Shown in pieces: positions 16,713 to 17,107 of a DNA stretch of 64,000 nt (its first letter is position 1; the number at the start of each line of letters is the position of its first letter). The notes under the pieces were generated by a model. It was not told the origin of the DNA. It saw only the letters and a program-made list of their open reading frames with translations, and did not search any database. The DNA lies in assembly GCF_003334815.1 (NCBI RefSeq), contig NZ_QOWO01000014.1; one strand, 5' to 3'. This stretch comes from Escherichia coli (GTDB lineage Bacteria > Pseudomonadota > Gammaproteobacteria > Enterobacterales > Enterobacteriaceae). Made by a program: the position numbers and the translations under genes.

Positions 16713-17107
16713 TGGTTTATCCCCGCTGGCGCGGGGAACTCGACAGAACGGCCTCAGTAGTCTCGTCAGGCTCCGGTTTATCCCCGCTGGCGCGGGGAAC
16801 ACCTGTTTTCGCAAATCTATGGACTATTGCTATTCGGTTTATCCCCGCTGGCGCGGGGAACACGGGCGCACGGAATACAAAGCCGTGTATCTGCTCGGTT
16901 TATCCCCGCTGGCGCGGGGAACACTGGCTCTGCAACAGCAGCACCCATGACCACGTCGGTTTATCCCCGCTGGCGCGGGGAACACGAAATGCTGGTGAGC
17001 GTTAATGCCGCAAACACAGGTTTATCCCCGCTGGCGCGGGGAACACATTACGCCTTTTTGCGATTGCCCGGTTTTTGCCGGTTTATCCCCGCTGGCGCGG
17101 GGAACAC
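16713..17107 (-). CRISPR. Type I-E CRISPR array: 7 x 29-bp repeats, 6 x 32-bp spacers
   Basis: Repeats at 16713, 16774, 16835, 16896, 16957, 17018, 17079; reverse complement GTGTTCCCCGCGCCAGCGGGGATAAACCG is the E. coli I-E repeat; the 16713 repeat is variant, consistent with the leader-distal end. Confidence 0.97.

What the first reader, a model, noticed from the sequence alone, without database searches (positions are those of the whole stretch)
16713..17107. Type I-E CRISPR array (6 spacers) with no cas genes in the window
Seven 29-bp repeats separated by six 32-bp spacers; the repeat is the E. coli I-E repeat on the minus strand. Spacers, as read on the plus strand: GACAGAACGGCCTCAGTAGTCTCGTCAGGCTC; CTGTTTTCGCAAATCTATGGACTATTGCTATT; GGGCGCACGGAATACAAAGCCGTGTATCTGCT; TGGCTCTGCAACAGCAGCACCCATGACCACGT; GAAATGCTGGTGAGCGTTAATGCCGCAAACAC; ATTACGCCTTTTTGCGATTGCCCGGTTTTTGC. 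The repeat at 16713 is degenerate, which places the leader at the 17108 side. In K-12 the cas operon lies on the far side of cysJIH, outside this window.
Basis: partly seen in the sequence, partly recalled or inferred. Interest (0 to 1): 0.4.

Follow-up and report, generated by a model that had tools for sequence, protein, structure and literature searches.

The report
Known E. coli CRISPR array, probably orphaned
This is the well-known second CRISPR array of E. coli (between ygcE and queE), identical to the one in K-12, sitting in a strain that has most likely lost the Cas genes needed to use it, so it is an ordinary, already described feature.

Summary
Seven 29-bp repeats and six unique 32-bp spacers lie at 16713-17107, with none expected by chance. 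It is the E. coli type I-E CRISPR2.3 array of the ygcE-queE (CRISPR-II) locus. It is transcribed on the minus strand from a leader at 17108-17446. Repeats, spacers and leader are identical to K-12. The window is not K-12. It is 99.97% identical over 64 kb to strain ECCTRSRTH03 and begins with the end of an IS150. In that strain, and in all 16 genomes sharing the window's exact first 1200 bases, the cas operon is absent: the order is cysH, IS150, hok, IS421, a CRISPR remnant, then iap. The array is therefore probably an orphan, with no Cas6e, Cascade or Cas3 to use it. Its leader matches one shown experimentally to accept spacers when Cas1-Cas2 are supplied. Spacer 2 has a perfect protospacer with an ATG PAM in a temperate-phage integrase gene. 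Spacer 5 derives from a siphophage portal gene. The other four spacers have no target. Everything here is already described in the literature, so interest is low.

The parts
16713..17107 (-). CRISPR2.3 array of the CRISPR-II locus: 7 repeats of 29 bp and 6 spacers of 32 bp. The oldest spacer is at 16742 and the newest at 17047.
   Evidence: Identical unit for unit to K-12 (L001 30014-30408). Annotated as a CRISPR of 395 bp in NZ_CP041110.
17108..17446 (-). Leader and intergenic region up to queE, 70% A+T. The minimal 60-bp leader is 17108-17167.
   Evidence: 339/339 identical to K-12 and 338/339 to REL606. Conserved blocks are shared with CRISPR2.1 leaders of K-12, D6 and 510016. Function of this leader type in spacer integration: PMC3384332, PMC5224486.
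17168..17173 (-). Probable -10 box TACTAT, preceded by TG (extended -10), at -66 to -61 from the first repeat.
   Evidence: Sequence read. The position matches the -10 box that PMC3384332 reports at -61 to -66. The generic promoter scan did not flag it.
16803..16834 (-). Spacer 2, which has a perfect protospacer with an ATG PAM in a temperate-phage integrase gene.
16986..17017 (-). Spacer 5, derived from a siphophage portal gene. Its adjacent repeat (17018) has a variant PAM-derived base.
16120..16258 (-). Vestigial CRISPR2.2 mini-array: two degenerate repeats around a 32-bp spacer, then a 20-bp gap and a third, strongly degenerate repeat-like unit.
   Evidence: CRISPR2.2 is described 0.5 kb from CRISPR2.3 in PMC3903273.
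16259..16712 (.). AT-rich (72%) 0.45-kb region between CRISPR2.2 and CRISPR2.3.
   Evidence: composition; no detectable leader homology.
14596..16074 (+). ygcE (FGGY-family sugar kinase), the flanking gene on the leader-distal side.
17447..18118 (-). queE (ygcF), the flanking gene on the leader side.
1..80 (.). Right end of IS150 (1-77) and its 3-bp target duplication GGT (78-80), inserted in the hok/sokX locus upstream of cysH. It marks the edge of the iap-cysH (CRISPR-I) locus.

Best explanation
This is the CRISPR2.3 array of the E. coli type I-E system (the CRISPR-II locus between ygcE and queE/ygcF), together with its leader and the vestigial CRISPR2.2 array. In a cell with cas-E genes it works as follows. 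It is transcribed on the minus strand from the leader promoter. Cas6e cuts the transcript at the base of each repeat hairpin into 61-nt crRNAs. Cascade uses these to find DNA carrying a matching protospacer next to an AWG PAM, and Cas3 destroys that DNA. Cas1-Cas2 with IHF insert new spacers at the leader-repeat junction (17107/17108). In the strain this window comes from, the cas-E operon at the iap-cysH locus has most probably been lost. The array would then be an orphan: a frozen record of old encounters with temperate phages that cannot be processed or used for interference. It would remain a competent integration site if Cas1-Cas2 were supplied. Shown here: the anatomy, identity, orientation, leader identity, phage origin of two spacers, and absence of cas genes from the window. 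Inferred: loss of cas in this genome, from the nearest relatives. Taken from the literature on identical sequence: transcription, processing and integration competence.
For: Repeat array statistics. The locus between ygcE and queE is annotated as CRISPR in E. coli genomes. The array is identical to K-12 unit for unit. The repeat RNA folds into a 7-bp stem with a 4-nt loop, -15 kcal/mol, z about -3.2 to -3.7. Leader homology and identity. Spacer 2 matches 32/32 with an ATG PAM in a phage integrase gene. Spacer 5 matches 29-30/32 in frame with a portal gene, with most mismatches at codon third positions. No cas genes lie in the window. Evidence for cas loss: window 1-77 is IS150. The window is 99.973% identical to ECCTRSRTH03, where the order is cysH, IS150, hok, IS421, CRISPR remnant, iap. 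All 16 genomes matching window 1-1200 at 100% show this cas-less structure. Literature: the CRISPR-II locus with CRISPR2.2 and 2.3, and IS-mediated cas-E loss (PMC3903273). The cas-less BL21-AI array at this same locus, and K-12 array II, both expand when Cas1+2 are expressed (PMC3384332).
Against: Loss of cas cannot be seen in the window itself. The IS150|cysH junction also occurs in genomes with an intact cas operon (D6) or a partly deleted one (510016). It is found in 348 genomes in all. Four of the six spacers have no identified target. Spacer 5's closest relatives lack a canonical PAM and differ at seed position 2. Rfam gave no CRISPR repeat family match. The generic promoter scan found no minus-strand promoter in the leader.
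Confidence: 0.85

Rival explanations
1. The array belongs to a complete, usable type I-E system. The cas-E operon lies just beyond the IS150 and hok at the window's left edge, as in strain D6, or beyond cysH, as in K-12. The array would then be processed whenever H-NS silencing is relieved.
For: The same IS150|cysH junction (100% over 150 bases) is present in D6, which has cas3 to cas2 intact. K-12, with the identical array, has cas genes beyond cysH.
Against: The window's cysH-side haplotype (positions 1-1200 at 100%) is found only in 16 listed genomes, and all of them are cas-less at this locus. The genome that is 99.973% identical over the whole window lacks cas. D6 has different cysH, cysI and cysJ protein accessions.
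Confidence: 0.12
2. The retained array has a Cas-independent role that keeps it intact in cas-less lineages. Examples would be a structured RNA or DNA element, or regulation of the neighbouring queE or ygcE genes.
For: The same six-spacer block is carried at 99% identity or better by roughly 640-900 of 5,426 complete genomes. It is unchanged between K-12 and this cas-less lineage. Even the most degenerate CRISPR2.2 unit keeps the hairpin through paired changes.
Against: The identity is explained by recent common ancestry: the flanks are 99.6% identical to K-12. E. coli arrays are also known to turn over slowly (PMC10910852, PMC3903273). Other lineages carry entirely different spacers at this locus, as REL606 does, so spacer content is not conserved for a function. 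No evidence for any such role was found.
Confidence: 0.03

Closest known systems
E. coli K-12 MG1655 CRISPR2.3 (also called CRISPR II or array II; NC_000913.3 about 2,904,013-2,904,407)
   Same: All 7 repeats, all 6 spacers, the variant AGG repeat, the degenerate terminal repeat, the 339-bp leader and the CRISPR2.2 neighbour are identical.
   Different: K-12 has the cas-E operon 17 kb away beyond cysJIH. This strain has IS150 at that edge and most probably no cas operon. One SNP at 16519 lies between the two arrays.
E. coli B (REL606, BL21) array between queE and ygcE: the 'CRISPR array I' of BL21-AI used in Cas1-Cas2 adaptation assays
   Same: Same locus, same repeat, and a leader 338/339 identical. 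It shares the oldest spacer and the terminal repeat. The genome is cas-less, with hok, IS421 and a CRISPR remnant next to cysH (PMC3384332).
   Different: E. coli B carries 13 spacers, 12 of them different from those here. BL21 lacks the IS150 next to cysH.
E. coli CRISPR2.1 (the cas-adjacent array of the iap-cysH locus)
   Same: Same repeat family, spacer length and leader architecture, with conserved leader blocks.
   Different: CRISPR2.1 sits next to cas2, and its leader variant co-varies with the cas-E variant. In K-12 its repeats read GAGTTCC rather than GTGTTCC (PMC3903273).
Orphan CRISPR arrays in general (arrays without cognate cas genes)
   Same: Repeats, spacers and leader are retained without the effector genes.
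   Different: In this case the history is known: cas-E was lost at a separate locus in association with IS elements, and the array is demonstrably still a good Cas1-Cas2 substrate.

Membership tests
E. coli type I-E CRISPR array (CRISPR2.3, CRISPR-II locus) | 29-bp repeat matching the I-E consensus GWGTTCCCCGCGCCAGCGGGGATAAACCG | tested here: met
   Seven copies with 0-2 mismatches and 0 expected by chance. They are identical to the K-12 repeats.
E. coli type I-E CRISPR array (CRISPR2.3, CRISPR-II locus) | Unique spacers of 32-33 bp at a constant 61-bp period | tested here: met
   Six 32-bp spacers, each unique in the window.
E. coli type I-E CRISPR array (CRISPR2.3, CRISPR-II locus) | Repeat transcript forms the stem-loop recognised by Cas6e | tested here: met
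   In silico only: a 7-bp stem with a 4-nt loop, -15.1 to -15.2 kcal/mol. Cleavage itself cannot be tested with these tools.
E. coli type I-E CRISPR array (CRISPR2.3, CRISPR-II locus) | Position between ygcE and ygcF (queE), with CRISPR2.2 about 0.5 kb away | tested here: met
   The definition is in PMC3903273.
E. coli type I-E CRISPR array (CRISPR2.3, CRISPR-II locus) | AT-rich leader of the 2.3 type next to the newest repeat | tested here: met
   339/339 identical to K-12, 338/339 to REL606, 70% A+T. It is homologous to CRISPR2.1 leaders.
E. coli type I-E CRISPR array (CRISPR2.3, CRISPR-II locus) | Protospacers flanked by an AWG PAM | tested here: inconclusive
   Met for spacer 2 (ATG). Not met in the nearest homologs of spacer 5 (GCG, AAC, GCC and others). 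No protospacer was found for spacers 1, 3, 4 and 6.
E. coli type I-E CRISPR array (CRISPR2.3, CRISPR-II locus) | Match to a curated CRISPR direct-repeat RNA family in Rfam | tested here: inconclusive
   No CRISPR-DR match at E up to 1. The only hit was a chance hit to Chlorobi-1. Short repeats score poorly, so this says little.
Complete, functional type I-E CRISPR-Cas system | Cognate genes cas3, cse1, cse2, cas7, cas5, cas6e, cas1 and cas2 present | tested here: not met
   None are in the 64-kb window. The rest of the genome cannot be seen, but the nearest genomes lack the operon.
Complete, functional type I-E CRISPR-Cas system | Array transcribed and processed into crRNA; interference against matching targets | not testable with these tools
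   This requires RNA and phage or plasmid challenge experiments.

The most novel reading that the evidence does not exclude
The array in this cas-less lineage may be a standby immune memory rather than mere debris. It keeps an intact leader and repeats, so horizontal re-acquisition of a cas-E module, which is documented as module exchange in E. coli, would immediately re-arm six old spacers, including one with a perfect PAM-flanked target in a temperate phage. Separately, the vestigial CRISPR2.2 units keep the hairpin through paired substitutions, which could hint at selection on the structure itself.
Probability: 0.08. Interest if true: 0.3.

Novelty: already known. Interest (0 to 1): 0.08.

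Why it matters
It matters little beyond correct annotation. The locus is a textbook one, and its sequence is identical to that of K-12. The useful corrections are that the strain is not K-12, that its Cas genes are probably gone so the array cannot confer immunity, and that a second vestigial array lies next to it. The protospacer results (a temperate-phage integrase gene and a portal gene) fit the published view that E. coli spacers mostly target temperate phages.

Tried and rejected
1. I tried using the IS150|cysH junction as a marker of cas loss and rejected it. The junction is in 348 genomes, including D6 with an intact cas operon and 510016 with a partial one. I used the exact haplotype of window 1-1200 instead.
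2. Counting genomes with the whole cysH-IS150-hok-IS421 structure was confounded by paralogous hokE and hokC loci that carry the same IS elements.
3. The Rfam scan gave no CRISPR repeat family.
4. The generic promoter and terminator scan found nothing useful on the minus strand of the leader.
5. I tested whether the 0.45-kb AT-rich region is a vestigial leader for CRISPR2.2. There is no similarity to the 2.3 leader (z about 0).
6. Spacers 1, 3, 4 and 6 have no protospacer in INPHARED phages, PLSDB plasmids or IMG/VR.
7. A 28/30 hit of the spacer 4 region to a Shewanella phage capsid gene (E = 0.1) includes two repeat bases, and I treat it as chance.
8. The long 'phage' and 'plasmid' hits are CRISPR arrays in mis-filed chromosomal records.
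9. The host of the phage carrying the spacer 2 target could not be identified. It has no match in 5,426 E. coli genomes or in the GTDB species representatives, and it is only distantly similar to lambdoid phages.

Full report
**Observation.**
The region 16713-17107 contains seven copies of CGGTTTATCCCCGCTGGCGCGGGGAACAC on the + strand at an exact 61-bp period. The copies carry 2, 0, 0, 0, 0, 1 and 0 mismatches, and shuffled sequence gives none.

**What the locus is.**
The array lies between ygcE (14596-16074, +) and queE/ygcF (17447-18118, -). A 1.6-kb query around it matched all 5,426 complete E. coli genomes, and in the listed rows the match lies under features annotated CRISPR, ygcE and queE. 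Window 76-20700 aligns to K-12 MG1655 at 99.64%. Within 15900-17500 the only difference from K-12 is one base at 16519, outside the arrays.

Repeat-by-repeat extraction shows the array is identical to the K-12 array. This includes the degenerate terminal repeat (TGG...AACTC) and the variant AGG repeat at 17018. The mini-array at 16120-16209 is also identical.

The literature calls this the CRISPR-II locus. It carries CRISPR2.2 and CRISPR2.3 separated by 0.5 kb, with a leader next to CRISPR2.3 (PMC3903273).

**Orientation and leader.**
Read on the minus strand, the repeat is GTGTTCCCCGCGCCAGCGGGGATAAACCG. It folds into a 7-bp stem with a 4-nt loop at about -15 kcal/mol.

The 70% A+T flank at 17108-17446 is 339/339 identical to the K-12 CRISPR2.3 leader. 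It is 338/339 identical to that of E. coli B REL606, with the single difference at -100. It shares conserved blocks with the cas-adjacent CRISPR2.1 leaders of K-12, D6 and 510016. The leader is therefore on the high-coordinate side, the newest spacer is at 17047-17078, and the oldest is at 16742-16773.

A TG-n-TACTAT motif lies at 17168-17173 on the minus strand. This is at -66 to -61, the position of the -10 box reported in PMC3384332. The generic promoter scan did not flag it.

**Where the Cas genes are.**
No cas gene lies in the window. The window is 99.973% identical (16 substitutions and 1 indel) over all 64,000 bases to strain ECCTRSRTH03. That genome's annotation for this stretch runs from cysH to recD with no cas gene.

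But the window is not K-12. Its first 77 bases are the right end of IS150, followed by the 3-bp target duplication GGT, inserted in the hok/sokX locus.

In ECCTRSRTH03 and REL606 the order beyond cysH is IS150, hok, IS421, a leaderless CRISPR remnant, then iap, with no cas genes.

The junction alone is not diagnostic. It occurs in 348 genomes. These include D6, with an intact cas operon, and 510016, with an IS1-truncated one. However, the 16 genomes that match window 1-1200 at 100% all show the cas-less structure.

BL21 is cas-less without the IS150, so the IS150 insertion and the loss of cas are separate events.

I conclude, with about 85% confidence, that the source genome lacks cas-E and that the array is an orphan. 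This cannot be proved from the window.

**Function.**
With cas-E present, the array would be transcribed from the leader and cut by Cas6e. The crRNAs would be loaded into Cascade and used with Cas3 against AWG-flanked targets. This rests on established knowledge of type I-E systems. Without cas-E, none of these steps can occur.

The DNA remains a competent integration site. Yosef et al. showed that the cas-less BL21-AI 'array I' expands when Cas1+2 are supplied. The coordinates they give (NC_012947.1:1002800-1003800) cover the array I confirmed to lie between queE and ygcE. They also showed that K-12 array II, which has identical repeats and leader, expands as well, and that 60 bp of leader suffice (PMC3384332). 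The IHF site and the integrase-anchoring site were defined on the same leader (PMC5224486).

**Spacer origins.**
I searched the whole array against phage and plasmid collections at short-word sensitivity. I also scanned IMG/VR with each spacer, masking the positions that are flipped out in Cascade.

- **Spacer 2** has a 32/32 match in IMGVR_UViG_2713896897_000016. On the + strand it is followed by CAT, which is an ATG PAM in crRNA orientation. The match lies inside a 429-aa integrase gene (phrog_1, E = 3e-62), next to exonuclease and Gam-like genes. This phage is absent from all 5,426 complete E. coli genomes and from the GTDB species representatives. It is only distantly related to known lambdoid phages.
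- **Spacer 5** matches portal genes of Klebsiella and Escherichia siphophages at 29/32, and at best 30/32 among more than 120 viral contigs. The match is in frame, and most mismatches fall at codon third positions. All homologs differ at seed position 2, and none has a canonical PAM. This fits the variant PAM-derived base (A on the + strand) of the adjacent repeat at 17018. The true source was a relative that is not in the databases.
- **Spacers 1, 3, 4 and 6** have no credible target.

**Distribution.**
The six-spacer block is present at 99% identity or better in the best match of 902 genome records. About 7 of 40 evenly spaced rows show full coverage, so roughly 640-900 of 5,426 genomes carry it. 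REL606 and BL21 share only the oldest spacer and the terminal repeat. This is the known slow turnover with a shared leader-distal end (PMC3903273).

**Verdict.**
The added value is the correction about the strain and its probable lack of Cas genes, the overlooked CRISPR2.2 remnant, and targets for two spacers. Interest is low.

Noticed in passing
window 13901-13903 (yqcE, 13292-14569, +): yqcE carries a premature stop (GAA to TAA, codon 204 of 425). It splits the MFS transporter gene into two ORFs. K-12 and the 99.97%-identical genome ECCTRSRTH03 both have G at this position, so this is a strain-specific pseudogenisation or a sequencing error.
   Followed up: partly
window 1-80: The window begins with the last 77 bases of IS150 and its GGT target duplication, inserted inside the sokX/hok antisense locus upstream of cysH. 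The identical junction occurs in 348 of 5,426 complete genomes, both with and without cas genes. It is absent from BL21, which suggests either an insertion hot spot or spread by recombination.
   Followed up: partly
L003 20850-24200 (NZ_CP041110) and paralogous loci in other genomes: The IS421(IS186-like)-hok-IS150 arrangement next to cysH matches at about 98% over 3 kb at the hokE and hokC/mokC loci of many E. coli genomes. hok loci therefore repeatedly carry the same pair of IS elements.
   Followed up: no
window 16230-16258: The third, strongly degenerate unit of CRISPR2.2 (CGGTTTATCCCTGTTTTTACAAGGAATAT) still folds into the same 7-bp stem. Two pairs are changed on both sides (C-G to U-A) and one is a wobble pair (-7.9 kcal/mol, z = -2.9). 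It follows a 20-bp rather than a 32-bp gap.
   Followed up: partly
window 16713-16741 versus L001 3763-4464: The terminal repeat of CRISPR2.3 ends in AACTC, the variant typical of K-12's cas-adjacent CRISPR2.1 repeats. All other CRISPR2.3 repeats end in AACAC, the variant seen in the CRISPR2.1 arrays of D6 and of cas-less strains.
   Followed up: no
window 186-3797: 68 of the 74 differences from K-12 in the first 20.7 kb are clustered in cysH, cysI and cysJ. The next 17 kb have only 6. This is a sharp change of haplotype next to the iap-cysH locus and is consistent with recombination there.
   Followed up: no
window 16080-16110: A GC-rich hairpin (GGCCGGGCGGGAAACTGCCCGGCC) lies directly after the ygcE stop codon, probably its terminator. 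The terminator scan did not report it because it lacks a T run.
   Followed up: no
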